Origin: Amoebophrya sp. A120
Lineage: Eukaryota > Protista > Dinoflagellata
Assembly (NCBI GenBank): GCA_905178155.1
Contig: CAJINV010000006.1
Span: 2,431,208-2,446,073, forward strand
DNA length: 14,866 nucleotides
Direction of reading: 5' to 3'
The notes beneath the pieces were generated by a model, which saw only the letters and a list, made by a program, of their open reading frames with translations, did not search any database and was not told the origin of the DNA. A program made the position numbers and the translations under genes. This document shows positions 1 through 14,866 of this stretch, piece after piece. Each line of letters opens with the position of its first letter. The first letter of the stretch is position 1.

Positions 1-140
1 CCTCTCCCGACCCTCTCCATTACCTCTCGTTTTACCTCTCCCCGACCCTCTCATTTTGTCCGACCCTCTATTTTACCTCTCCGACCCTCTATTTTACCTC
101 TCCCGAACCTCTACCAAACCTCTACTGTACCCTCTCCAGC
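1..140. repeat. Degenerate pyrimidine-rich tandem repeat, ~21-nt unit CCGACCCTCTATTTTACCTCT, probably intronic
   Basis: Near-perfect units at about 60-102, with degenerate CCGACCCTCT/TTACCTCT copies across 1-140. It lies downstream of the GT donor at 190 on the minus strand. Confidence 0.75.
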
Positions 141-190
141 CCCGTTTTCTTCCATATATAAATATAATAATGGTTTAAGTAAGTAACTAC

Positions 191-319
191 CTCGGTCGCT
201 TTCACCTCGGAACGGGTGGTCTTCTTGCGCAGCAGGCTTTCGGCCGAGACAACGGTCGCGGAGGCGACGTTGGCGGCGACAGCGCCGAACAGGACCAGGG
301 TCTTCTTGGAGGCGAACAT
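191..319 (-). CDS. First exon of a probable secreted protein (gene continues off the left edge)
   Basis: ATG at 319 gives MFASKKTLVLFGAVAANVASATVVSAESLLRKKTTRSEVKATE, a signal-peptide-like start with GC-rich codons. It ends at GAG|gtagtt (canonical GT donor at 190), where composition turns AT-rich and repetitive. Confidence 0.6.
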
Positions 320-1335
320 TTTTGGGTTTGAGTTTTTCGCTTCTTCTCGAAGAAAGCAAAAAAAAAGGTTTTTTTACGGAGCGAGAAAAGGTTTATTCTA
401 CTCGAGGAGGTAGTTGTTGTACAACTTTTTTGCTTTTCTAGGTGCTGGCTTGGTGCCGGTTTGTTTGAAACTTGGTTTCGTGTTTCAGTCGAGTTGCTGT
501 TATTTTCCTGTGATGACAATGTTGGTTGTGTGGAAGTACTAACACGTACAACTTGGATGCGAATATCAAGGTAGAAGTAGTGATTGATTTTAATTTGTTT
601 CGAAAGTTCCTAACCACAATACGACGTACTTCCGCAGGTGTACGAGGATTGCAGAAAATTTCGCATCTATCATCGGCGTAGTACGATGCAACGAAGTGGA
701 AGAAGTTCCTGTTGGAGTTGGACACTTGTACCCCTGCCACGAAATGTTGACAATGCACGCACTGATACGATCATTATCCCTGGACGATGAGGACGAAGAC
801 GATATCTAACTATTTCATAATTTGAACCACGAGGAGGACTACACGAGGAAGGTCATGTACACAACGAGTCGAATGGCACTACACCAGCGCGGCATACGTA
901 TAGTATACAGGATTTTCAAATTCTCATACGATGTTGACGAGGACTCTCATCTGGCCGGGATTCTACTTTTCTGTAAAATACGTGGTGTAGGTGTACAACT
1001 ACTACGCGTGTAATTGACGAAGCTGCCTCGACGGCTTTATAAAAATGGTGAACACGATCATCCACATTGTGCTCGTGCAGTAGAACACCTTCAAAACGAG
1101 TCTCGACTGACTCGACAGAAAGAGAAGTCTATTTATTGCACACGATATTTATTAAGCTTCGACACAGTAAATCAATTGATCAAACACAAACTGAAAAGCA
1201 GAAGATCTTCATGTATGCTCGTGTAAAAATATGCTGCATCGTGATGTCCGTAGCAGTTGAAAAGATTGTTTTCTTCCATTTTTTGCAAGCCTTGCTCCTT
1301 CGACGTGGTGACATCAAAAACTCCCTTTGATGTGG

Positions 1336-4300
1336 TCACCGAATCCTTTCCATCTGTCCCTGGACCCTATCAAATGTAAAAATCCCTGGATGTCTCGAAA
1401 CTTGTGATGCTGTGTGGCATATCATGAGGAGGCCACAATTGCTGGCTCAGCATGACAAGTTTCTGAGCTTCTAGGTGTTGCCTATTCTGCATGACAAACT
1501 AAGTACGTTTCTGCATGACAGAAAAGTGGGGCTCTTTGGTAATGTGCATGACAGATTTAAGAGTCATGCCAGACAGGCATGACAAACTTGCATTCTTCCA
1601 GACCCAGACATTTTTACGATTTGATAAACCCGGCTCATAAACAACACCTATTAAGGGGAAAAGCGAGGGCAGCAGCTCTCATTAGTGCCTGTGTTGATGA
1701 TGATGCTAAGCCTAGTACTCATGCACATTTGCTATGGTCCTCAGTTCTTTTGCACCGCGAACGCATTCGCACAACAAGTAGTTACTTACAGCAATTGGAA
1801 TTGCCGAACGCGTCTGATGCATAAATTAAACTTCTTACGCGGTGGTCGTGTGGGCTGATTTTAGTACTTGGTAGTACTAACTTACCTTTCAGCAGCACTT
1901 GTCAAAGACAAAGAGACCACTCACTTCCCTATCAACTGTAAAAATGTCTGGGTCTGGAAGATTGCCAGGTTTGTCATGCACATTTTGCATGACTCCTGAT
2001 GTCTGTGATGCATGCCCTAGCATCACAGATTTTATGAGGGCTTCCTGATGCCTATACCGCATGACAAACGCTCTTTCCGTGTAGCAAAACTTGAAATCTC
2101 TTTGCTGCTCATGCAATACAGATTTTTTTAGCATCCAAAATCAGCATGACAAGTTGCATTCTTCCAGACCCAGACATTTTTACATTTGATATTCCCTTTC
2201 ATAAGACCACGTCGGTACCTAGCCCATACACGGTATGGATTGCAAAAGTGTCTAGGTCTGGAAGATTCTACACTTGTAATGCTGTCTCTGGATTCTAAAA
2301 AAATTTGTATTGCATGACCAGCAAGAGGACTCCAGTTTGTGCTACGCGGAAAGGGCATTTCNCAAAGGAATTCACGTATGAAATGCAAAAGTGTCTAGGT
2401 CTGGAAGATTCTACACTTGTAATGCTGTCTCTGGATTCTAAAAAAATTTGTATTGCATGACCAGCAAGAGGACTCCAGTTTGTGCTACGCGGAAAGGGCA
2501 TTTCTAGTGCGGTAGAGGCGTCAGGAAGTCCTCTAAAAATCTGTGATGCTAGCGCATGCATCACAAACATCATGGATCATTCAAAATATGCATGACAAAC
2601 CTGAAAATCTTCCAGACCCAGACATATTTGTACTCCATACACGGTGTGCAGCTGCAACGAGCCACCGAGGTAGCGTGCGTAGAGATTTGCCAGGGGCAAC
2701 CCACAACCGCCCCCAGCGAAGGTCACTGTTTTGTAGTGCTGGCGGTATGCATTGCAAAATAAACATCTTCGTAAGTACACAAATCGCATGCCGAATTTCC
2801 ATTTCCTGCGCACGGGTAGAAATGGAATCTGTAATACGGAGTTAATACCTCAAGGAAGGGAAGAGACTTGATCAATTCTAATGCATGAATGCTGTCATTA
2901 GTACGACTGCGATTATACAACTTTTGCAATGCATAGCCGGGAGAGAAAGTTAGTTTCTTCGAAGTTCGCCTGTTCCGCAAAAGAAGAACTGCTGGCCGTG
3001 CTTGGGTTGGTCGTGTTGGGTGCCAGTTGTTGCGCTAACAACTGTTGCTCCGCCGTTTGGTGGTCATCGTCGACCATCAGATTGAGAGAATTCAACCCAT
3101 TTTCGTCCTTCACGTGCTCTGTGTTTGTCGTGCTGTGCAGGTAGTCGAAAACGTGCGGAGAATATGCATTGCAAAAGTATTATTGCAGTTACGCATTACA
3201 AATCTTTTTCCTAAAGGTCAATCAAATCAGCAGCACAAATTACATTTCTCATGCTGAGGAAATTCAAATTTGTATATGCAATTCATACTACTCACGGTGC
3301 TTTTGCAATTCATAGCAAATCCTCATCCGCAATGCCCCCTCCCTCGTCGCGGATGCGTATCGCGCACGAGAAGTCGTCTCCGGTGAGCACAATCTCGATG
3401 ACCCCCGGGCGCAGGAGTTGCTCAGTCGTGCTGTTGTCCTTGTTTTCATGATCATGTGGCTCAGCGACCTGTTGGAGGCCTGCCACTGCGTTTGCTGCTG
3501 CAGCTTCCGCGCTTTTTACTGTTGTTGTGTCCACTACATGGTCCTCCACAATCTTCACGAACGTATCCGGTGTTCCCTTCTCCGTCTGTTTGACCTGGTC
3601 CGCTTCCTCCTGCCTTTCCCGCAAGGAGCTCGACCGTGTCCGCACGAATGTGCCCCCGCCGAACTTTTTTCGCAACAGCCTCTTTTTTCTGTGGTTGATG
3701 GTCGCGGTGTATGACAGTGCACAACTCCCCCTCGTTCTCATTTCTCATGCAAAGTATCCAATCCACGCTTTCCCTCCTGTCACTATTATGCATGACAAAT
3801 TCTGGTAGCCCAAATAGCACTACAGTCCAGTCGTGCAAATTTATCATGCAAAACCGGCACTCTTGCTGAGGCTTGTATTGCCGTTCATGCTATACAAATT
3901 AGAAGGAGGGGGAGCTGTGCACTGTCATACGGTGGCGGCATTTTTCAGAATCTCGAACAGGATGAAGTACAAATGGTTGGTTGGATAGGCGATTATGCAT
4001 TGCAAAAGCATCGCACTTAGTGTAAATTGCATTACAAATACTTAAGTTGCTCAGCATGACGAGAACTGAAATTTGTCACGCTGTTCTACCTTTATCACAA
4101 GACTTGTCATGCATATTACGAGTACGATACTTTTGCACAGGATAGGAATCACGGGGTGCTGAATTTTCCGCAGTTTAAAAACCAACTCATCGTCGGCAAC
4201 GCCGTATTTCAACTTCACCAGATTTTTCACCTCCTTCACCGCATTTTCGCAAACCTTTGTGACATCGCACTCGGGGTCGATAATCCCCGCTCCGGACTGA

Positions 4301-7300
4301 ATGTAGCGGGAGTAGTATCGTGAGAAAAAAGTGTTTCACTGTAAGGATTTTACTTCCAGTTTTGCATCACAAGTTCGTTACACATGACAAAGAAAACTTG
4401 TCATGCAAGGTTTCTAAGAGAAACCAGAGCTAAAAGCGCAAGGTCTTGCATGTGTAGCACGACACGTCGGTCTGTGTTCCATTCTATGCATCACAAGTTT
4501 ACAGTGAAACTACAGTTTTTTCGTGCGATAAGTAGGGCTCCGCGAGTTCCAGATACCGTCGAATCAGCAGCTTGGTGGACATGCGACCCAAGAATAACCT
4601 ATCCAGGATTTCGTTCATCCGTTTCTTTTCCTGCAGTAACAGCTCTGGCGAACTTATCCAAGACAAAAACTGTGTTAGTGTAGCTATGACTATCTTTCTT
4701 GGCTGACAGCATTACAAATTTGCTCCACATGTTGACAGAGAAATAGACCTGTCATGCGTGGCTTGTAAAGGAAAACACACATGAAAGAGAACTTCATGGT
4801 TGCCTGGCATGACAAGTTCGTACCTCTCTTGCAAGTTCTGCATTACAGAGTTACACTTACACAGTTTTTTTCTTGCATAGAACTCACCTCGCTCGTCTTG
4901 CCGCTCGCCGTGGCTGTCGCGAGGGCGCTATGAACTGCAAAAGCATCGAGTATTCGTATAAATGCATTACCAGCATGACAAAGAAAATTTGTAATGCGGA
5001 TTTGACTTAACAAAAAGATTTGTAATGCATGATTGCATGATAATACGAATACGATATACTTTTGCACAGGATAGGCGCCGTTTGTGCTGCTTTCGACCAG
5101 GTTGGTCGCGCCGGCCAGGATATCACACGGAAAAATCCCCCCTCCACATATCGAAAAAGAAATTTGTGATGCTGGATTCGCGTACACAGATCAGGTTTGT
5201 ATTGCTAGAAGGCGAAGAAACGTAGTTGCGGTCTCGCCTGCAGGTAATCTGTCATTCTGTTTTCCGCTTGTCTAGATGCTTCCTGTCATGCTGAAGACGC
5301 AAGGCATTTCAACACCAGCCAGTACTACAGTGCGCATCTCTACTTCCCCTCTAGCATGACAACGCGATCTGAGGTCACACATCATGCTACACAAATCCCC
5401 GCTTTGATATGGGGAGGGGGGAGTTTTCATTGTAATACAGGAGTCTGGTGGTTCGGGAGTGCCGTTTGTGGATGGTTTGCAAACAGGTATACAACAGATT
5501 CGTGGGTCGTATTGTGAGCAAAAATCCCCCCTCCCCATATCGAAGAGGCGCGCTTTTCAAAATTTGTGCTGCTGATTTGTGGCCACAGATCGAGTCTGTC
5601 TTGCAAGAGAGCAAAGCCAGAGCTTCCGCCGCATTTCGCACGCGACTTGTAATGCTAGCGCCAATGGGGCAGACATCTGCCATGCTAAGTGACTACCTCA
5701 AGCCACCCCTTTCCGGGCTTTGTATCTGCCTGCAGTTCTCTACTGCAAGACAAAGCTAATTTGTGTACGCAAATACAGCATCACAGACTTTCCTTTCGAT
5801 ATGGGGAGGGGGGATTTTTCATTTTGATAGATCGGGCCTCGTGGTCTTGCACAGAACACTGATCTGCGGCTTGTTTTTCTGCCTCTTCTGCTGAAAGTCC
5901 GTCCACGTTACCAGTTGTTCCGTAGTTCTTATCCATGAGCTCGAATTTTTTAATCGGCGTTGCGTCAAATTTCTCCTTCAGCCGGACCAGCTCCTGCTGG
6001 ACTTTTCTTAAATCGGTAAAACTCTGCACGTATGCATTGCAACTAGGTCTCGGTCTGGGAGGTTGCAAAATTTGTCATGCTAGTCTGCCACGGCTCTAAA
6101 CTCTGTATTGCGTACTCCGCGAAGAGCTCCATTTGCCTGTCATGCAAAAACGCAGCTTTTCATGCGGGGCACGCACCTCATAACCCCGGAGAGCGAGAAA
6201 CTTGTCATGCTTGCCGGCGCATTACAAAGTGCTCAATATTCCCTTTGTTGCATCACAAGTTATTTCCATACCCAGACGTATTTGCAGTTGATAGCACGTA
6301 GAGCTCCCTCACATCGGAGAAGGCCTGATTCGACTGCCAGTCCGGAATGGATTCCAGCAATTTTTGTCCTGTGCAAAAGTATCGTACTCATAGAATAGTA
6401 AAAGTAATGGCATTTCTGCATGGCAAATCTCTTTTTCAAGGTAAATCGGCATGAGAAATCCCATTTGTCATGCTGAGCAAATTTGTAATCTGATTACTAC
6501 TAGCACGATGCTTTTGCATTTCATAATTTTATCCGGTGCGCGAATCTGATCGGGAGTTCATTCAGAAGTACCTTTCCCAGCTTTTCCGTCGTTTGAAAGG
6601 ACAAAATCTCCTCCAACGTAAACGGCTTCGGGTCCCGCAGGTATGAAATGCAAATATCCCTGGATGTCTGGAAACTTGTGATGCTGGGTGGGATATCATG
6701 AGGAGGCAACAAGTGCTGGCTCAGCATGACAAGTTTCTGAGCTTGAGCTTCCAGGTGTTGCCTATGCTGCATGACCAACTGCGTTTCTGCATGGCAGAAA
6801 AATGGGGCTCTTGGGTAACGTGCATGACAGATTTAAGAGTCATGCCAGACAAGCATGACACACATGCATTCTTCCAGACCCAAACATTTTTGCAGTTCAT
6901 AGCAGGCCCAGCGAAACGATTTCCGCGTTTAACAACTCGCGTAGGCGCTCATTGGACAAATTGGTGGTCGACGGCTGTCTCTCGAAGGACGACGTCGAGG
7001 AGCTAGTACTGCTTGAGGAGGAGCTATCAAATGCAAATATGTCTGGATCTGGGCGAAGGATGCACGGTTTATCATGCACATTTTGCATGACTCCTGATGT
7101 CTGTGATGCATGTCCTTCTAGCATCACAGATCTTGTGAGGGCTTCGGCTTCCTGATGCCTATACCGCATGAGAAACAAATGACCTCTCGCCGTGGGAAAA
7201 ACCGGACCTCTTACTTTGCTGTTCCAGCAATACAGATTTTTGTAGAATGCAGACGCGGCATCACAAGTTGCATCCTTCCAGACATCCAGGGATATTTGCA

Positions 7301-7736
7301 TGTGATAGGAGCTCGCTCCCGACGAAAAGGTTGAGAAGTGGTTCTTGCTGTTTATTTTGGGAAAATTACATGAAGCAGTGGAAGCGCCGCAAAAGGAGAT
7401 CTTCATGAAGCCGGTTCGTTGCACTCCACTCGCCCTGGACGGTATTTTCCATCGTACATCATTCCCAACCGCCGGGTTGTACCAAGGGGCGATGAAGATG
7501 AACGTTTTGGGCTTCCTTTCATAGCTCCAACCAGGAGAAGCATCATGGACACCAGGTTCTTTCATCTTGCAGCTGCCCCACCGCCGCCGACCAAGTTTTA
7601 CAACTGGAGCTGCAGGTGGCGATATTTTTAAATGGTGCACAGTGACCGCGGCCCTTGTAGAAGAACCTCCTCGACGTCCCAAAGCAGGCGGCATGATCGC
7701 CGTAGTTGCAGAGGATGATGAACAGGCAACAAACAT
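1336..7736 (-). CDS. Mitochondrial alpha-ketoacid dehydrogenase kinase (PDK/BCKDK family, GHKL ATPase fold), 17 exons, 732 aa
   Basis: Exons 7736-7308, 7019-6902, 6636-6526, 6359-6294, 6025-5830, 5504-5438, 5115-5074, 4923-4880, 4649-4531, 4310-4145, 3988-3930, 3704-3315, 3157-2936, 2740-2640, 2228-2204, 1643-1627 and 1362-1336 total 2199 nt with no internal stop (junctions can slide within the 5-nt repeats). Family motifs occur in order: PFTLEEILSF, NELPIRFAHRIK, LYVQSFTDL, IHKRH, ILDRLFLGR, GIIDPEC, HLYFILFEILKNA (N box), IRDEGGGI (G1), VFDYLHST, AGGGCGLPLANLYARYLGG (G2), GTDVVLF...MERIR*. The start ATG (7736 or 7694) is uncertain; the basic/Ser-rich N-terminus fits a presequence. Confidence 0.92.
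1368..1626. mobile_element. Introner-like TIR element, type A
   Basis: tatcaaatgtaaaa...cttccagacccagacatttttacgatttgata; flanking repeats gaccc/aaccc; closely similar to 6642-6901. Confidence 0.9.
1649..2203. mobile_element. Old degenerate introner-like element hosting a nested element
   Basis: Left end tattaaggggaaaagcgag versus restored right end (reverse complement) tatgaaagggaagtgag; repeats acacc/agacc; removal gives GTDVVLFMSR. Confidence 0.75.
1930..2191. mobile_element. Introner-like TIR element, type A, nested in 1649-2203
   Basis: tatcaactgtaaaaatgtctgggtctggaag...cttccagacccagacatttttacatttgata; perfect repeat ttccc; similar to 7025-7307. Confidence 0.92.
2234..2639. mobile_element. 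Introner-like TIR element, type A (true length probably ~263 bp)
   Basis: tatggattgcaaaagtgtctaggtctggaag...cttccagacccagacatatttgtactccata; perfect repeat cacgg; contains an N-associated duplication. Confidence 0.88.
2241..2504. other. Probable assembly artefact: exact 121-bp duplication across an N
   Basis: 2241-2361 is identical to 2384-2504; N at 2362; 2363-2396 is the reverse complement of 13819-13852. Confidence 0.8.
2746..2935. mobile_element. Introner-like TIR element, type B
   Basis: tatgcattgcaaaa...ttttgcaatgcata; repeats ggcgg/gccgg. Confidence 0.9.
3163..3314. mobile_element. Introner-like TIR element, type B
   Basis: tatgcattgcaaaag...cttttgcaattcata; repeats gagaa/gcaaa; removal joins DEDL to PHVFDYL. 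Confidence 0.88.
3710..3929. mobile_element. Introner-like TIR element, type C
   Basis: tatgacagtgcacaactccccctc...gagggggagctgtgcactgtcata; perfect repeat cggtg. Confidence 0.92.
3994..4144. mobile_element. Introner-like TIR element, type B
   Basis: tatgcattgcaaaagcatcg...cgatacttttgcacaggata; repeats gcgat/ggaat. Confidence 0.88.
4316..4530. mobile_element. Introner-like TIR element, type D
   Basis: tatcgtgagaaaaaagtgtttcactgtaa...ttacagtgaaactacagttttttcgtgcgata; perfect repeat agtag. Confidence 0.9.
4655..4879. mobile_element. Introner-like TIR element, type E
   Basis: tatccaagacaaaaactgtgttagtgta...tacacttacacagtttttttcttgcata; perfect repeat gaact. Confidence 0.9.
4929..5073. mobile_element. 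Introner-like TIR element, type B
   Basis: tatgaactgcaaaag...cttttgcacaggata; perfect repeat ggcgc. Confidence 0.9.
5121..5437. mobile_element. Introner-like TIR element, type F
   Basis: tatcacacggaaaaatcccccctccacatatc...gatatggggagggggagttttcattgtaata; perfect repeat cagga. Confidence 0.9.
5510..5829. mobile_element. Introner-like TIR element, type F
   Basis: tattgtgagcaaaaatcccccctccccatatcg...cgatatggggagggggggatttttcattttgata; repeats ggtcg/gatcg. Confidence 0.9.
6031..6293. mobile_element. Introner-like TIR element, type A (diverged)
   Basis: tatgcattgcaactaggtctcggtctggga...ttccatacccagacgtatttgcagttgata; perfect repeat gcacg. Confidence 0.9.
6365..6525. mobile_element. Introner-like TIR element, type B (left end TGT instead of TAT)
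   Basis: tgtcctgtgcaaaagtatcgtact...agcacgatgcttttgcatttcata; perfect repeat atttt. Confidence 0.88.
6642..6901. mobile_element. Introner-like TIR element, type A
   Basis: tatgaaatgcaaatatccctggatgtctggaa...ttccagacccaaacatttttgcagttcata; perfect repeat gcagg. Confidence 0.92.
7025..7307. mobile_element. Introner-like TIR element, type A
   Basis: tatcaaatgcaaatatgtctgg...ccagggatatttgcatgtgata; perfect repeat ggagc. Confidence 0.92.
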
Positions 7737-8417
7737 TTCTTGTGAACAGAAACAGTGGTACTTACTTACAACAACCACGTTGGCCCAGGAGCAGCTCTCC
7801 TTTTCTCCACTTCTCTAGGAAGAAGATGAAACAAAAAAACACAAAGAAACAACCGCGAAGCACCGGGAAAAAAATATAACCGAAGTTCAGACAAGCCTGT
7901 CTTTCTCTTTGTTTTTTGGAGCACACATTTATATATTTTGCGCGGCAGAGGTAATGATCTTTTTCTTCCTTGATCAGGCGACCGAATTACTACAACTGAA
8001 TTCTAGTTCATTCAATTCTCCTGTAGCTTTGACCGAGAGATGAAAACGAACGCCGCCAATCGATCGAGAGGTGCTGGTGGCGTCTTCAAACCCAAGAGGA
8101 ACAGAACCTCCCGAAGTCTTCCGCACGACTATACCTATGCAGTCTTCCGCAAGAGGCACTTAGTGGGTTTCCACTCACTTGTACCTATGCCTTTGGTAGG
8201 GCCGGAGTTAATTATAGATGTTGGTGTCGCCTGTTTTGTCAAATGAAATTCCGGATTTCCATCTACTTGTTCCGGTCGTAAATCAAGTCGGTTGTAAGTA
8301 ACTCGATTGAAACGCCGTTTTCCACCACTAGCACTTCTTGTTCTTCGAGAAAGAACAATCACCATTTATATAAATCGGTGCGGCCTGCTAAACCGACGCG
8401 CATTGCAGATCGGGATC

Positions 8418-11400
8418 TCACAGCCTGAAAGCCTCGCTGGCCCGTTGAAAGTAGACACCGGTGGATATCGTGAGGAAAAATCCTCCCTCCCCATATCGAA
8501 ACGGAACGCCTCAGAGAATTTGCGGTGCTGATTTGTGACCACAAAAAATCGCGTCTGTCTTGCAAGAAAGCGATGGCATGGGCTACGTCCCATTCATTGT
8601 GCAGGCGGCTTGTAATGCTGTTGGTCCTACAGCATTGACGTTCCTCATGCTAAGTGCCTAGGCAAAAACCTCTCCACATTTGCATGATATTATGGGCCTG
8701 CAATCCTCTACTGCAAGACAGACCTGATTTGTGTACGCAAAATCCAGCATCAGAAATTTCGCTTCGATGTGGGGAGGATGGATTTTCCATTTTGATAGTG
8801 GAGAGGATTTGCGTCTTGCCATCGTCGTCCTCTTCCGACTGCCAGAGGAGCTCGAAGATGCACAGCGCTTTGATGTACTTGCGGATTTTGTCGTCGCAGC
8901 CCACCACCTCCAGCGTCTTCGCGCTTTCCTTCACGATGATGCCGTGGCTGAGCAGAATGGTATGCATTGCAAATTATATGTCCGGGTCTGGAAACTTGTG
9001 ATGCAAGAAAGGGAAAAGTAGTGAACTCACTATAATGCGCTGCCAAGCATGACAAGTTTTTTCATGCCTCTCAATTGCGTACTCCGCACGAGAAACTGCG
9101 TTTTTGCATGACAGGGAGGAGGAGCTCTACTTCGCGGCCATGCAACACAGACTTCAGAGTGATACCAGACCAGCATGAGAAATGTCGCAATCTCCCAGAC
9201 CCAGACATTTTTGCATTTGATACATGGAGGGGGAACTTGATGAAATTGTTCCTGCAGGCGGTTTCCTTTTCTTGGTTTCCCGCTTCGCATCTGTTAATAC
9301 TTCCGCATTTTTCGTAGTTTCTGCTGGTGCGACTGTCGTGCTGGCACCTCCTGTTGCAGAAGTTGTTGTACCGTTTTTATCGACGTCCAATATCTTCTGG
9401 TCGGTTGTTCCAGTAGTTCCTCTTGCCGCTTTTAGTAGTCTTTTTTTCTCCACCTCGATGTACTCGTAGTTCTGAGCTGGTGCAAGGAACTTGTTGCTAA
9501 GCTCAACATCTGCGCTAGTCCTATTCACATTCACATTCTTCTTCTCACTTATTATTTTCTCTTGACCAAAAATTCCACCCCTCCTTGTGTCGTCAACTAC
9601 AGCATCCTCCTCCTGCTTCGCAAGAACTTCACTTTGATTTATTTTCCCTTGCTTAATAGCTCCGCCGTCTCTGGAACAACAAACTTCTTCGTCTGAAGAG
9701 TCGACTGCATCAAGGCCGACGAGATCATCCTCAGTGTACATCAAAGAAAAATCCCCCACGACGCCCTTCTTCCCCCAGAAAATCCCTCCGTGTTTATTTA
9801 TTCGCCTGGACAAATCGCCTGCTTTTTTCCACGCCCTAAATTTCCGGACCCGGTCCCCATTCTCCCAGACGCGCACTCGCGCGCCGACCAGCACCGTCGC
9901 CCGCGTGAGGTTGTTGTTTCGCTCGAAGTATGCATTGCAAAAATGTCCGGGTCTGGAAGAATGCCGGACTTGTCTTGCTTGTCTGGCATGACTCTTGGAT
10001 CTGTGATGCGTAAGCAGGAACGGGGCCTCCTGCCTGTCATGCAAAAACGCAGTGCAGTTTGCCATGCGGAAAACGAAGCACATGGAACGTGCAAAAACTT
10101 GTCTTGCTTGGCTGCATATTGTAGTGCGCCTATCATTCACAGACTTGCATCACAAGTTTCCAGACCCAGACAGTTTTGCATTTGATACGAAGTACTGCTG
10201 CCACTTGTCGGCAAGCACGAAAAATTTCCCAAACTTCGCCTCGGGTAAGGGTTTGGTCTTCCGCTTGCCTTTATCAAATGTAAAAATGTCTGGGTCTGGA
10301 AGAGTCATGCTGTTTTTGCATGACACGGAAGGTCTGGCATGGAAGCTCTAGCATCACAGGTTTCGACAAGCTTCCGCAATGCCGAACCCGCATGAGAAAT
10401 CCCCCATTTTGGTGACAGAAAGTCGACGGCAGCTTTTGCTACCTATGCATGAGAGATTTTTCTGTGTTCTAGAATGCGCATCACAAGTTCGGATCCTTCC
10501 AGACCCAGACATTTTTGCATTTGATAGCCCTGTTTCGGCACGAGAACTTCTGTCTTTCTTCTGTCCAAGTTGTAGTTCAAAGCCCTCGCGAGGTCGAGGG
10601 CGGGTTGGTCAGGAGGAAATACTCCTGCGGGGAGAGGACTTCTACTACAACTTTCTTGTGCGACGGTTAATATTTCATGATGATCTGGCAGCACTGGCGC
10701 AGGAGTGGTAGCTTCATCGACGCGCATTGAAGATGCAGGAGCGTGTTGTGCCTCCGGCATTTCTGTTTCATCTGGAAGTTTTACTCTTAACGCAGCAGCT
10801 TGGCTAGTAGAGTCCTGCGTGTTCTTGTAGTTCGCCACAGAATTCGGACGTGGTCGCGCTCCTGGGTTGTTCGTCGCATCTGGCCGAGGACGTCGTGTCT
10901 TCTTCCTACTACTGGTGCTGCGACGAGCAGGCGCAGTTGATGTGGTAGTAGCTCCACGCCCGATCTGTATCCCCAGTCGCTGTTCTAACCGAGTCGGGGC
11001 GAATGTAGATGAGCCCTGTGCTGGAGGTCGTCGTGGTGGTCGCTTTGATGTTGTGGTCTTCCCTTCAATTATATTTTTCCCCTGCATAATTTCTACTTGG
11101 TCAACTTCAGGATCACGATTTATTCCCGGTAGTTCTTGCGCGCTACGGCCCTCCAGCTGTTCCTCCATATCAACGTTTTCTTCGGCTGCTGGGCCTAAAA
11201 TGCTCGTCGTCGCTGCGCAAGTACTCCCAGCCGAATTTAACACATTTTTACCACGTCCATTTCGACGTCCTCCATGACTTCTCTTCTGCTCTGGCCGTTC
11301 CCCAATTTCAAAGAGCTTCAACTCCCTTGCCGCCCTGTGCCCGATCTTTTTTGCGGGTTTGAGCTGCGCGGTATTTATCTTGGAGGCCCCTTTTCCTTTC

Positions 11401-12199
11401 GCCTTGAAGGTGGTTTTAGTACTTGTGCTACCGGTCGAGGCCAGCCTTGCTCGCGCCACGGAAGCAGCAGCAGCAGCTGCTGGACCCCCGGGGTTATTTC
11501 TTATTCCCCCATTTTTCGTTCCTCGCTTCTGCCCCGCGGCGCCACTGTAGGTGGTGAGGTGGAGGTTTTTGTTTCGCACTTTGTTCAACACCTGACTTGT
11601 CGCCGGAATTTTGTGATGCTGGGCGAGCAACTGAACCCACTCCTCAGTTGCTGGCGGTTTCGGTTTTGATGTTGACGACATCGGCTTTGTTGTTTGGATT
11701 TGAGGTTCTTTGACAGCGGCCGCTGCACTTCTTGCACTAGCTGCTCCCGTTGATGTCTTGTTCTCTGTGAAGATCTTGCTAGCCGGCGGAACGACAGAGG
11801 AGGAGCTGCTGCCGGCAATTTTTGTTGGTCCTGCGAGGGAGACGGCGGGCAGCGACTTCTTAGTGCTTGTTTCCAGAACTACATCCTCCGCATGTTGACC
11901 ACTTCCCGAAGACGCCAGCCGTTTGTTTCTCGGCGGGGGCAGCAGGCGGGGCGGCAGCATCGAGGTATCCTGTGCAAAAGCATCGCACTCGTACTAATTG
12001 CAGTTATGCATGACAAATTTCCTTTCCGAGGTAAAACAGCATGACAAATTCAATTTTTCATGCTGAGAAGCTTTGTAATGCAATTTATACTAGTACGATG
12101 CTTTTGCAATGCATACGACGTTCTTGAGGCCGATGATGTCGCCGGGTTCTTCTTGGCGTTACCAGAAGGGCGGCGGTCCTGGGCGTTGTGGCCGCTCAT
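8418..12199 (-). CDS. Hypothetical protein, 832 aa, 6 exons, long low-complexity S/T/A/K/R-rich N-terminal region
   Basis: Exons 12199-12116, 11960-10527, 10266-10188, 9923-9223, 8955-8798 and 8460-8418 total 2499 nt and are open throughout (MSGHNAQDRR...KWQQYFERNNN...ILSTGVYFQRASEAFRL*). There is an in-frame TAG upstream of ATG 12199. No family recognised. Confidence 0.8.
8466..8797. mobile_element. Introner-like TIR element, type F
   Basis: tatcgtgaggaaaaatcctccctccccatatcg...cgatgtggggaggatggattttccattttgata; perfect repeat gtgga. Confidence 0.9.
8961..9222. mobile_element. Introner-like TIR element, type A
   Basis: tatgcattgcaaattatatgtccgggtctgg...ccagacccagacatttttgcatttgata; repeats aatgg/catgg. 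Confidence 0.9.
9929..10187. mobile_element. Introner-like TIR element, type A
   Basis: tatgcattgcaaaaatgtccgggtctggaa...ttccagacccagacagttttgcatttgata; perfect repeat cgaag; interior is inverted relative to 8961-9222. Confidence 0.92.
10272..10526. mobile_element. Introner-like TIR element, type A
   Basis: tatcaaatgtaaaaatgtctgggtctggaag...cttccagacccagacatttttgcatttgata; repeats gcctt/gccct. Confidence 0.92.
11966..12115. mobile_element. Introner-like TIR element, type B
   Basis: tatcctgtgcaaaagcatcg...cgatgcttttgcaatgcata; repeats cgagg/cgacg. Confidence 0.9.
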
Positions 12200-13222
12200 T
12201 ATGACATCCACATCCAGTTTAATAGATGTCTATCTGTGTAGACTAGAAGAAGATAGAAAAATAACACGCAAGGGTGGGTGGCCTCAACATTGCGGTCAGA
12301 CTACAGACTTAAGAGAAAGGGGCGCAACCGCAACTTGCAGCATAACATCGATCTTTATCCGGATTACGATTTTAGTGTTTTTGGTTTCTTACCTCGCTGT
12401 CCGGAAAAATATAATCATGTAAGTAAAGAGCAACGCCTGTCTCTGACACCGAAATAAATCTCATCTTCAACAGCGATCTACCACGAAAACTTTCTAAAAG
12501 CACTAGGTCGCTGTTGGGTCCTCGTTGGGCAAAAACATTCTGTCGCTGTCCTTGTCTTTGTCTTCGCGTCGTGAACGCATCAAATAAATTCTCCGAGTAG
12601 CACAGCCGGTCGGATGGAAGATTTTTCGACTAAGTAAGTAGCTCGTCCTTTGTCGTAGACAAGATCGTCCTTATGCCGTCGTCGATCGGTGACTTTCATC
12701 TTCATCGCTCTGTTCCTGTTGAGCTGAAATTCGTTATACCGCGGGTCGAAGTATGATCGCAAAAGGTGCAGCTCAGGGGATCTTCACTAATTGATTCTGC
12801 TGCTACATGGTCAAGAACTCGCTTGGCCCGGCTTTTGGAGGATCTTTTTGTAGTTGGAAGATCTTCGAATAGACACGACTAGCGCGGCTCGTGGGGGAAG
12901 AAGATCTTCTTCGCCTAGGTTTTTTTCCAGTAACTCGCACGTTAGTGGTCCCTAGCGCTTTATTTCCGAAGTCGTCACGAGAGCTACGACGCTTGCGGCG
13001 CGCGAAAATGATGAAAACAGAGACGAGTCGCGTAGTACGGTGTTCGTCCTGATGTTGATCTACGGCTCTCAATCTTCATCTAGTTCTCTTTTATTGTTGC
13101 ATTGCTCTTTGTCTTTCTTCTGTAATTATAGAAAATCGTCCACTGTAGTCGGAGGACACTGAAGTTCAATCCGTAGTGAAATTTTTACTCGGCTCATGAC
13201 AAGCTCCACCTTTTGCTTTTCA

Positions 13223-14866
13223 TCAAAAATCCTCCACGTCGGCCAACACGCCCATTCTTATGAAAGCGCAAAAGACCCTCCCCCTGCTTCTCCTCATTTG
13301 CAAGAATGTAAGTACTTACTTTCCTGCAGCAACACGAGCAACAGGAATCACGTTCACGCACTAGTTTTGGCATGACAAATAACCGGCAGCACACGAATTT
13401 TAGTTGTACTGCTTGGATTTCATCCGAGAGTTTTCATTTCATGCACAAAAAAGTGCCAAAAAGTAAAGAACAGTCCAGACTTGGTATTTAGTTAATTTCA
13501 CATGACAAGTAAGGGAAGAAGCAGGGGGAAATTGTGCACGAGTCTCGTATTCCCGAGAAAACTCCCCGAATCCGAGATATCAAATGCAAAAGTGTCTGGG
13601 TCTGGGAGGATGGAATTTGTGATGCGTCCTGTGGGTCACGCAAGAATCTGTGTTGCGTGATCACCAAAAGTTGTCCTTTTTTGACCAAAATGAGCTGGAG
13701 TTTCTCATGCAGGATAGGCATGATAGAGACATCGCAGAATCTGTCATGCTAGGTCCTGCATTCCAGACATCACGGGGCATGGAAAATATGCATGACAAGT
13801 TCGCATCCTTCCAGACCCAGACACTTTTGCATTTCATACGTGAATTCCTTTGTCAAATCTATTCTCCAAACGTTCCCGGGCTCCGGACAGATTATGCATT
13901 GCGAAAGTACTATCGGAGTGACACTATATATTGCATTGCAATACAAATTAGCGCAGCATGACAGATGGATTCTGTCATGCTGATTTAGCTTGGAAAAGAG
14001 ATTTGTCTTGCATGACTGCGAAGATTAGTACGAGCGCGATACTTTTGCACTGCATACGTATCGCCTTGTGCTTAAATTCCTTTCCCTCGCTCCACGGCCG
14101 CAGCGCTCCCGCTTTCGCGCCTTTCTATCAAAGTGAAAAAAGCCCCCAGCGCCCCATATTCAAAAGACAATTTGTGTTGCTGGATTTATGTAGACAGATG
14201 AGCTTTGTATTGCTGCAAGAGCTTGTCGGCATATTCTAAACCCATTTGGGTACTACGCATCCGGCTAGCAGCTGAGCATGAGAAACAAGTCTGACATATT
14301 AAGGCGAAAACGCATGACAAACTCGCTGCACAACAATGCGCCACATGGGTGCCGTTTGCCTTGTACGCAAGACAGAGCTGATCTGTGGTCACAAATCAGC
14401 ATCACAAATTTCCCTTTCCTCTATGGGGGAGGGGGGATTTTTCATTACGGTACTTTCAGCTGTTTCCCCTGGACCCAGGCGGTGCGGAACCTCTTCAGGA
14501 AAGAGTAGATGATCAGATAAACCAGAATGACGACGCACTATGCAATGCAAAAGCATCCTACCGGTGATAATTGCAGTCATCCATTACAAATCTTTTTCTT
14601 ATGGTAAATCCGCAATACAAATTATATTTCTCATGCTGGGTAAATTTGTAGTGCATTTCTACGAGTACGATACTTTATTTGCAATGCATACGCAGGTCAC
14701 CATGTCGATTATCGTTGCGATTTGGAAATCAAACCTTGCCATCCTGGTTTGCACGACGCGCGCCATCTCAAAGTCAACCGAAGAGGCAGCTCCCTCCTGC
14801 GCCGCTTCTCGGGCGATTCGGTAGGAGAAGCCCTGGCCTGTCGCGGCGATCATCAGAGAAACGACG
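13223..14866 (-). CDS. 3' part of a membrane protein (5' end outside window); last exon and stop uncertain
   Basis: Exons 14866-14691, 14533-14453, 14120-14057, 13887-13839 and 13572-13550 join in frame: VVSLMIAATGQG...FQIATIIDMVTCVVILVYLIIYSFLKRFRTAW...DSGSFLG, with one clear hydrophobic helix. The stop is at 13223 if the degenerate element 13259-13549 is removed by the usual rule, or at 13498 if it is retained. Confidence 0.6.
13259..13549. mobile_element. Degenerate introner-like element, type C-like
   Basis: Arms tatgaaag...tccccctgcttct and agaagcaggggga...gtgcacgagtctcgta, with internal catgacaa motifs (13371, 13501). The flanking repeat is poor (attct/ttccc, or attc shifted by 1 nt). 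Confidence 0.55.
13578..13838. mobile_element. Introner-like TIR element, type A
   Basis: tatcaaatgcaaaagtgtctgggtctgg...ccagacccagacacttttgcatttcata; repeats cgaga/cgtga. Confidence 0.92.
13893..14056. mobile_element. Introner-like TIR element, type B
   Basis: tatgcattgcgaaagta...tacttttgcactgcata; repeats cagat/cgtat. Confidence 0.85.
14126..14452. mobile_element. Introner-like TIR element, type F
   Basis: tatcaaagtgaaaaaagccccc...ggggggatttttcattacggta; perfect repeat ctttc. Confidence 0.88.
14539..14690. mobile_element. Introner-like TIR element, type B
   Basis: tatgcaatgcaaa...tttgcaatgcata; repeats cgcac/cgcag. Confidence 0.88.

What the first reader, a model, noticed from the sequence alone, without database searches (positions are those of the whole stretch)
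1368..14690. Genes split by 27 TIR elements that act as non-GT-AG introns under one rule: remove the element plus one 5-nt repeat
Seen: 27 elements (about 6.6 kb, 44% of the window) with TA(T)...(A)TA ends and 5-nt flanking repeats (14 perfect, 9 with 4/5, 3 with 3/5, 1 poor). The repeat sequence differs from site to site, as expected for target-site duplications. Removing element plus one repeat yields stop-free frames of 2199 and 2499 nt and rebuilds kinase motifs across junctions (DEDL|PHVFDY, LY|VQSF, KNAAT|AT, HTV|YGLGTD). Only one junction (1649-2203) can be drawn as GT-AG. Known: non-canonical introns with inverted and short direct repeats were reported in Amoebophrya (Farhat et al. 2021), with the excision mechanism unresolved as far as I know. 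Inference: a dedicated, precise removal system exists, either structure-guided RNA splicing or IES-like DNA excision.
Basis: partly seen in the sequence, partly recalled or inferred. Interest (0 to 1): 0.9.

Follow-up and report, generated by a model that had tools for sequence, protein, structure and literature searches.

The report
Amoebophrya transposon introns, fixed off-centre cut
Three genes of a marine algal parasite are split by 27 small transposon copies that RNA-like assemblies lack; these are the already published Amoebophrya 'introner' introns, and the added point is that they likely all get cut at one fixed off-centre position (1 base before, 4 after the element) by a still unidentified, probably spliceosome-derived machine.

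Summary
There are 27 elements (6,575 nt, 44%) with 5-nt flanking repeats (14 perfect, 9 at 4/5, 3 at 3/5, 1 at 2/5), and removing element + 5 nt gives 732- and 832-aa frames. The phenomenon is known. The 732-aa product is identical to Amoebophrya sp. A120 protein CAD7953739.1, and the TAT-N7-AAA ends and 5-bp repeats match the introners of PMC7789003. RNA-like contigs skip exactly element + 5 nt at two junction pairs, while a DNA-like run crosses the element ends unbroken, so IES-like excision is unlikely. What this adds: imperfect repeats at 10 junctions fit only one shared register, intron = 1 nt + element + 4 nt on the transcript strand, whichever way the element faces. No G+1, AG or branch-point signal was found, and no G-U excess in the stems. 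In a second assembly 263 of 354 copies have perfect 5-nt repeats and none has a perfect 6-nt repeat. TA..TA ends resemble IS3EU/GingerRoot, but the repeat length fails that test. The splicing machinery remains unshown. The scan noted similar introns in other genomes (unchecked).

The parts
1336..7736 (-). Gene 1: mitochondrial PDK/BCKDK-type kinase, 732 aa, 16 element introns
   Evidence: Identical to CAD7953739.1; PF10436 E=2e-17 and PF02518 E=2e-08; AT5.2 homolog P0005 aligns
8418..12199 (-). Gene 2: 832 aa, 5 element introns; weak RNase P/MRP p29-like C-terminal stretch
   Evidence: P0007 is identical over the first 818 aa but reads into the last element; PF01868 below its cutoff
13223..14866 (-). 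3' end of gene 3 (runs off the window), 5 element introns; paralog P0010 has a sub-cutoff ligand-gated-channel hit
1368..1626 (.). Element, ~260-nt family, repeat 4/5
1649..2203 (.). Outer element (288 nt without the nested copy), repeat 4/5; the only one drawable as GT-AG
1930..2191 (.). Nested ~260-nt family element, repeat 5/5
2234..2639 (.). ~260-nt family element with a probable assembly duplication, repeat 5/5
2746..2935 (.). Element without family members in the held loci, repeat 4/5
3163..3314 (.). ~150-nt family, repeat 3/5; limits register to k<=1; site empty in relative P0001
3710..3929 (.). Element, repeat 5/5
3994..4144 (.). ~150-nt family, opposite orientation to 3163, repeat 3/5; k<=1
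4316..4530 (.). ~215-nt family, repeat 5/5
4655..4879 (.). ~215-nt family, repeat 5/5
4929..5073 (.). ~150-nt family, repeat 5/5
5121..5437 (.). ~320-nt family, repeat 5/5
5510..5829 (.). ~320-nt family, repeat 4/5; k<=1; site empty in relative P0004
6031..6293 (.). ~260-nt family, repeat 5/5
6365..6525 (.). ~150-nt family, TGT left end, repeat 5/5
6642..6901 (.). ~260-nt family, repeat 5/5
7025..7307 (.). ~260-nt family, repeat 5/5
8466..8797 (.). ~320-nt family, repeat 5/5; both spliced and retained RNA-like contigs
   Evidence: records 12, 17, 18
8961..9222 (.). ~260-nt family, repeat 4/5; k>=1
   Evidence: records 12, 19
9929..10187 (.). ~260-nt family, repeat 5/5
   Evidence: record 19
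10272..10526 (.). ~260-nt family, repeat 4/5; k<=3
   Evidence: record 19
11966..12115 (.). ~150-nt family, repeat 4/5; k<=3
   Evidence: record 20
13259..13549 (.). Diverged singleton, repeat 2/5; boundary and 1<=k<=4 supported by paralog P0010
13578..13838 (.). ~260-nt family, repeat 4/5; k<=2
13893..14056 (.). ~150-nt family, repeat 3/5; k<=1
14126..14452 (.). ~320-nt family, TAT..GTA ends, repeat 5/5
14539..14690 (.). ~150-nt family, repeat 4/5; k<=4
   Evidence: record 22

Best explanation
These are Amoebophrya A120 introner elements: non-coding inverted-repeat transposon copies flanked by 5-nt repeats, absent together with 5 nt from RNA-like contigs where checked, and likely cut from the pre-mRNA at a fixed position by an adapted major spliceosome that would recognise the element's ends instead of GT-AG. 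Steps: (1) Insertion by a cut-and-paste transposase making a 5-bp duplication at sites of nearly any sequence. The repeat length and flat composition are shown; the enzyme is inferred and was not found. (2) Transcription through the element in either orientation (shown). (3) Removal at RNA level of element + 5 nt (shown for two junction pairs). (4) The cut falls 1 nt before the 5' TAT and 4 nt after the 3' ATA on the transcript, so introns begin N-U-A and end in no fixed dinucleotide (inferred from 10 junctions, assuming one shared rule). (5) U+2 and A+3 would be read by U6/Prp8 as in a normal donor, while the paired or protein-bound TIR ends would replace U1 and the AG acceptor as a ruler (inferred, untested). 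Confidence by step: known introner and RNA-level removal about 0.95; fixed 1+4 register about 0.7; spliceosomal catalysis about 0.55.
For: Identity with published class and locus. RNA level: X4 record 19 lacks 524 nt = (255+5)+(259+5) and X3 record 12 lacks 604 nt = (262+5)+(332+5) (gap sizes). RNA-like pieces also stop at the ends of five more elements. The 8 listed X1 pieces cross 19 element ends unbroken at depth 40-47. Register: k>=1 at 8961 (Ile in P0007) and 13259 (Met in paralog P0010). k<=1 at 3163 (Leu in P0001, P0002, P0005), 3994 (Pro in P0002, P0005), 5510 (Ser in P0002, P0004) and 13893 (Arg in P0009, P0010). Four looser limits agree and none conflicts. 3163 and 3994 are the same family in opposite orientation and both give k<=1. 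All nine top A120 non-canonical motifs in Table S4 of PMC7789003 have T at +2, and all nine A25 motifs start TT. Spliceosomal proteins and U2, U4, U5 and U6 are reported present and U1 undetected in A120. The review PMC11282704 reports spliceosomal removal of TIR/TSD introns in Fritillaria.
Against: Position +1 is free (A63 C53 G63 T40 of 219 oriented copies) and no acceptor AG appears; GT-AG can be drawn in only 7 of 219. Branch-point-like 5-mers show no strand bias near the 3' end (CTAAC 4 vs 3, CTGAC 7 vs 6), and orientation is balanced in the two large families (57:46, 31:25). U+2 and A+3 come from the TA end that a transposase needs anyway, so they are not independent support for a spliceosome. 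G-U pairs are fewer than A-C mismatches on the sense strand (6 vs 17 in the window; 89 vs 138 in the loci), which gives no support for selection on the RNA helix. Only two junctions set the lower limit k>=1. Several limits rest on database gene models, which may share data with the RNA runs. PMC7789003's Fig. 3 legend calls the splice sites variable relative to the hairpin. X3 and X4 are only guessed to be RNA.
Confidence: 0.55

Rival explanations
1. Same elements and register, but removal is by a non-spliceosomal endonuclease-ligase or an unknown machine that measures from the TIR stem (1 nt and 4 nt overhangs), as proposed for Euglena nonconventional introns.
For: No G+1, AG or branch-point signal; flanks are flat. 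Both orientations are used. The ends pair in predicted folds (median z -5.1 over 27 elements). Euglena introns follow a fixed spacer rule from a paired motif (abstract of PMC12501133) and leave circles, not lariats (review).
Against: No G-U excess in the stems. Folding is expected of any TIR element. A near-complete spliceosome is reported in this genome. No candidate enzyme was looked for, because no genome was held.
Confidence: 0.3
2. There is no single register: a tolerant spliceosome slides to whichever GT/GC/AT or AG/AC-like dinucleotide lies within the repeat, and the 1+4 pattern is a small-sample effect.
For: Published annotations give mixed ends, about half 'NC', per family. PMC7789003 calls the sites variable. 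Junction 1649-2203 has a GT-AG option at k=4 that could not be tested.
Against: At 10272 a GC-AG option exists at k=2 and is allowed but not required. At 3163, 3994, 5510 and 13893 no canonical pair exists in any register, yet all give k<=1. Perfect repeats let aligners slide junctions, which could explain the published mixture (inference).
Confidence: 0.12
3. IES-like programmed DNA excision creates element-free gene copies in some nuclei or life stages.
For: TA-bounded ends and precise loss resemble ciliate IESs (recalled). X3 and X4 are not on record as RNA.
Against: X1 contigs run through 19 element ends with no branch, and none of the 15 joints shown is exon-exon (1,854 not shown). X3 and X4 fall to 0-1.4 depth in intergenic bins where X1 stays near 60. 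Retained-element contigs occur beside spliced ones. The register is tied to transcript direction, not element direction.
Confidence: 0.03

Closest known systems
Introner elements / non-canonical introns of Amoebophrya sp. A120 (Farhat et al. 2021, PMC7789003; Gozashti et al. 2025, PMC12130899)
   Same: TAT + ~7 nt + AAA inverted ends, short direct repeats (5 bp in the Fig. S19 legend), non-GT-AG ends, multi-copy families of 150-330 nt, hairpins; this locus is in the A120 annotation.
   Different: Nothing in kind. The text I read gives 3-5 nt repeats and variable splice sites, whereas here the repeat is strictly 5 nt and one 1+4 register fits all informative junctions.
Euglena nonconventional introns (PMC12501133; review PMC11282704)
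   Same: TIR-paired ends, TSD-like repeats, no GT-AG, cut sites at fixed spacing from a paired motif.
   Different: Different motif (CAG/CTG), different spacing (3 nt and 5-6 nt), unrelated lineage; circular products are reported there and untested here.
Fritillaria borealis MITE-derived non-canonical introns (seen only through review PMC11282704)
   Same: TIR + TSD origin, non-canonical ends, efficient removal.
   Different: Preferred ends AG-AC/AG-AT and a fixed exonic context; here the flanks are free.
IS3EU/GingerRoot DNA transposons (PMC10045372)
   Same: TA..TA termini, occasionally TG..CA.
   Different: TSD usually 6 bp against 5 bp here; no transposase found to compare.

Membership tests
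Amoebophrya A120 introner elements | Inverted repeat starting TAT, ~7 variable nt, then at least 3 A | tested here: met
   Left end TAT in 26 of 27 and right end (reverse complement) TAT in 25 of 27; A-run at positions 11-14; definition
Amoebophrya A120 introner elements | Direct repeats of 3-5 nt at the exon-intron borders | tested here: met
   5 nt; 23 of 27 at 4/5 or better
Amoebophrya A120 introner elements | Repeated, in families | tested here: met
   23 of 27 fall in four families; 24 of 27 have near-full-length matches in the held loci
Amoebophrya A120 introner elements | Spliced from transcripts with non-GT-AG ends | tested here: met
   Exact lengths for two junction pairs; 9 of 26 junctions touched by listed RNA-like pieces; GT-AG drawable for 1 of 26
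Amoebophrya A120 introner elements | Host is Amoebophrya A120 | tested here: met
   0 differences to CAD7953739.1 over 732 aa; 100% to named P0007
IS3EU/GingerRoot | TA..TA termini | tested here: met
   definition
IS3EU/GingerRoot | 6-bp TSD | tested here: not met
   0 of 354 perfect at 6 nt, 263 of 354 at 5 nt
IS3EU/GingerRoot | IS3-like DDE transposase in an autonomous copy | tested here: inconclusive
   No transposase domain in the 70 long frames scanned from the loci, of 250 frames of 200 aa or more listed; loci were picked by a short-element end
U2-type spliceosomal intron | GT/GC donor and AG acceptor | tested here: not met
U2-type spliceosomal intron | Lariat with 2'-5' branch; U2/U6 dependence | not testable with these tools
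   needs excised-intron sequencing or inhibition
Ciliate-type IES | Element-free somatic DNA copies | tested here: not met
   one DNA-like run; contigs drop rare variants, so rare excision is not excluded
Euglena nonconventional intron | N3CDG...CH'GN5-6|R signature | not tested
   End consensus here is TAT..ATA with 1 and 4 nt overhangs; no formal scan made

The most novel reading that the evidence does not exclude
Amoebophrya has a dedicated, non-spliceosomal splicing machine, co-evolved with an undescribed TA..TA / 5-bp-TSD transposon superfamily, that measures 1 nt and 4 nt from the element's ends with no sequence demand on the host gene. This would make any insertion in either orientation a perfect intron.
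Probability: 0.2. Interest if true: 0.9.

Novelty: already known. Interest (0 to 1): 0.36.

Why it matters
The class and this locus are published, so the discovery value is low. How tens of thousands of such introns are removed is still open (PMC7789003 section 16; PMC11282704 section 6). A fixed, transcript-oriented 1+4 register would turn 'highly variable splice sites' into one rule: second base U, everything else set by distance from the element end. That gives exact junctions for lariat or circle assays and minigene tests. It also corrects gene models: 2 of the 3 database models here depart from the rule, and RNA-like contigs (gene 2) or a paralog (gene 3) favour the rule. It shows how a transposon can become nearly harmless to coding sequence.

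Tried and rejected
No whole genome was held, so snRNAs, ligases and autonomous elements could not be surveyed. No run on record as RNA holds the stretch. Raw-read run X9 laid only 133 reads, all partial and on element ends, so it is uninformative. A terminal 28-mer found 0 matches in viral contigs. Rfam gave 0 matches. Pfam on 70 long frames from the loci found no transposase. Tests for GT or AG enrichment in oriented repeats were negative. The G-U versus A-C test went the wrong way and weakened per element (10:2, p=0.04; 72:50, p=0.057; strict set 60 vs 76); family consensus differences make the copies non-independent. A stop-codon test of register on 51 imperfect repeats in the loci was uninformative; one apparent conflict (L013) lay in a non-coding frame, and three rows were boundary miscalls or very diverged repeats. 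Orientation calls in the loci are noisy: out-of-frame controls gave 115-129 of 498 against 231. Frame-preserving GT-AG alternatives within 15 nt exist for 12 of 26 junctions, but the database proteins and RNA lengths checked do not use them. Single-exon Pfam hits for the kinase were below cutoff; only the whole protein passes. Filing under IS3EU was rejected on TSD length. No earlier notes exist for this genome.
Full report
Observation. A motif scan and manual end-setting gave 27 elements, one nested, covering 6,575 nt or 44.2% of the window. Flank identity peaks at 5 nt (0.87; 0.23-0.32 at other lengths from 2 to 9), with 14, 9, 3 and 1 repeats at 5, 4, 3 and 2 of 5. Removing element + 5 nt opens minus-strand frames of 732 and 832 aa plus the 3' end of a third gene. 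Frames alone fix the amount only modulo 3. One element (2234-2639) carries a probable assembly duplication at the N.

Identity. An exon search returned P0001, whose cluster holds CAD7953739.1 of Amoebophrya sp. A120, 732 aa. It matches the rule-built product with 0 differences and is a PDK/BCKDK-type kinase. An AT5.2 homolog aligns at 46-52% identity in two blocks that span most junction positions. Gene 2 matches a named A120 protein at 100%. PMC7789003 describes A120 introners with inverted repeats of TAT, seven variable bases and three or more A, and direct repeats of 3-5 nt; the Fig. S19 legend shows 5 bp. The class and the locus are therefore published.

RNA or DNA. Runs X3 and X4 are guessed to be RNA. 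They hold about 40% of the words and drop to 0-1.4 depth in intergenic bins where X1 stays near 60. X4 record 19 and X3 record 12 lack exactly 524 and 604 nt, each the sum of two elements plus 5 nt apiece; the short middle exons were inferred from gap length, not listed. Listed pieces touch 9 of 26 junctions. Two listed X4 contigs retain element sequence (depth 7.3 and 3.1), which may be pre-mRNA or DNA. The 8 listed X1 pieces cross 19 element ends without a break. X1 may be the window's source and contigs lose rare variants, so this excludes only common DNA excision.

Transposon side. A 28-nt end pattern found 128 loci in a second assembly. Of 354 copies defined by homology and ends, without using the repeat, 263 have a perfect 5-nt repeat and 313 have at most one mismatch. 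Two are perfect at 4 nt, none at 6 nt, and shuffled pairs give 1.2. Repeat composition is nearly flat. An unnamed relative lacks the elements at 3163 and 5510 and has one at a site that is empty here (P0001, P0004; read from protein sequence only). This fits ongoing insertion. TA..TA ends are those of IS3EU/GingerRoot, whose TSD is usually 6 bp, so membership fails on that feature and remains a lead. No transposase was found. PMC12130899 classes most of the A120 families I saw as TIR DNA elements of unknown superfamily, and notes an integrase-like family 38.

Where the cut falls. Let k be the number of upstream-repeat bases inside the intron on the transcript strand. Lower limits: k>=1 at 8961, where RNA pieces stop at 9224 and P0007 has Ile, and at 13259, where paralog P0010 needs Met. 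Upper limits: k<=1 at 3163 (RNA pieces reach 3315 with no mismatch; Leu in P0001, P0002, P0005), 3994, 5510 and 13893; k<=2 at 13578; k<=3 at 10272 and 11966; k<=4 at 14539. Three imperfect repeats (1368, 1649, 2746) are silent at protein level and untested. Only k=1 satisfies all ten, if one rule holds. Elements 3163 and 3994 are one family in opposite orientations, so the register follows the transcript. Introns would start N-U-A. Table S4 of PMC7789003 lists only N-T starts among its nine top A120 motifs and only TT starts for A25, whose repeats begin TTA. This agrees, though the table is a short list.

Mechanism. In 219 oriented copies the flanks carry no signal and GT-AG is drawable 7 times. 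Both orientations are used, and no branch-point word is strand-biased. The cut must then be set by the element's symmetric ends (inference). The ends pair in predicted folds, but the sense strand shows no G-U excess, so sequence recognition of the ends is as open as helix recognition. I favour an adapted major spliceosome (about 0.55). Its parts are reported present with U1 undetected, U+2 and A+3 are kept in both strains, and Fritillaria is a precedent (review). A Euglena-like unknown machine is the main rival (about 0.3). Neither was tested.

Literature seen. PMC7789003: abstract, passages, sections 11, 12 and 16, and supplement text parts 2-3 of 5; figures were not visible, and Figs 3 and S19-S25 may already show the register. 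PMC12130899: passages and 22 of 58 A120 rows of one supplement; two files were not searched. PMC9860276 and PMC10045372: passages. PMC11282704: passages and section 6. PMC12501133: abstract and opening. Roy 2023 and Henriet 2019 were not read. I found no statement of a fixed 1+4 register in these texts or in searches; subscription journals are not covered. Farhat's note of repeats four bases upstream and within two downstream of the inverted repeats partly anticipates an asymmetry.

Verdict. The feature is real and already known. It gains a sharper, testable cutting rule that rests on few junctions. Interest 0.36.

Noticed in passing
window 8418-8797: Database model P0007 reads into the last element (867 aa), while RNA-like contigs show it both spliced (depth 23.7, 7.4) and retained (7.3): either an alternative C-terminus or a mis-annotation.
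   Followed up: partly
window 13550-13577: A micro-exon between two elements is skipped by model P0009, but paralog P0010 ends like the rule-built product, which supports the exon.
   Followed up: yes
window 2233-2504: 143-nt near-duplication around the single N; the bases after the N match the reverse complement of the flank at 13839-13852. Probable mis-join.
   Followed up: partly
window 13308-13319, 1784-1789, 1880-1885, 4855-4860: Full GTAAGT donor words lie inside some elements (on both strands at 13308-13319); they may be cryptic or nested canonical sites.
   Followed up: no
window 1-150: C/T-rich degenerate repeat (CCTCTCCCGA-like) with strong strand skew.
   Followed up: no
window 200-320: Short minus-strand ORF of about 40 aa with a hydrophobic, signal-peptide-like start; not in the protein collection by exact look-up.
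   Followed up: partly
window 8800-8955: Exon with a sub-cutoff RNase P/MRP p29 match (E=5e-05) at the end of a long low-complexity protein.
   Followed up: no
P0003: A 111-aa A120 protein repeats the kinase C-terminus on the same scaffold: a partial duplicate nearby.
   Followed up: no
L001-L128: About 20% of these 601 kb is element sequence (498 copies counted with overlaps), with family members up to 93% identical to the window's.
   Followed up: partly
window, upstream repeat position next to the element: G or C in 21 of 26 window junctions, but no such bias in 219 copies from the loci.
   Followed up: partly
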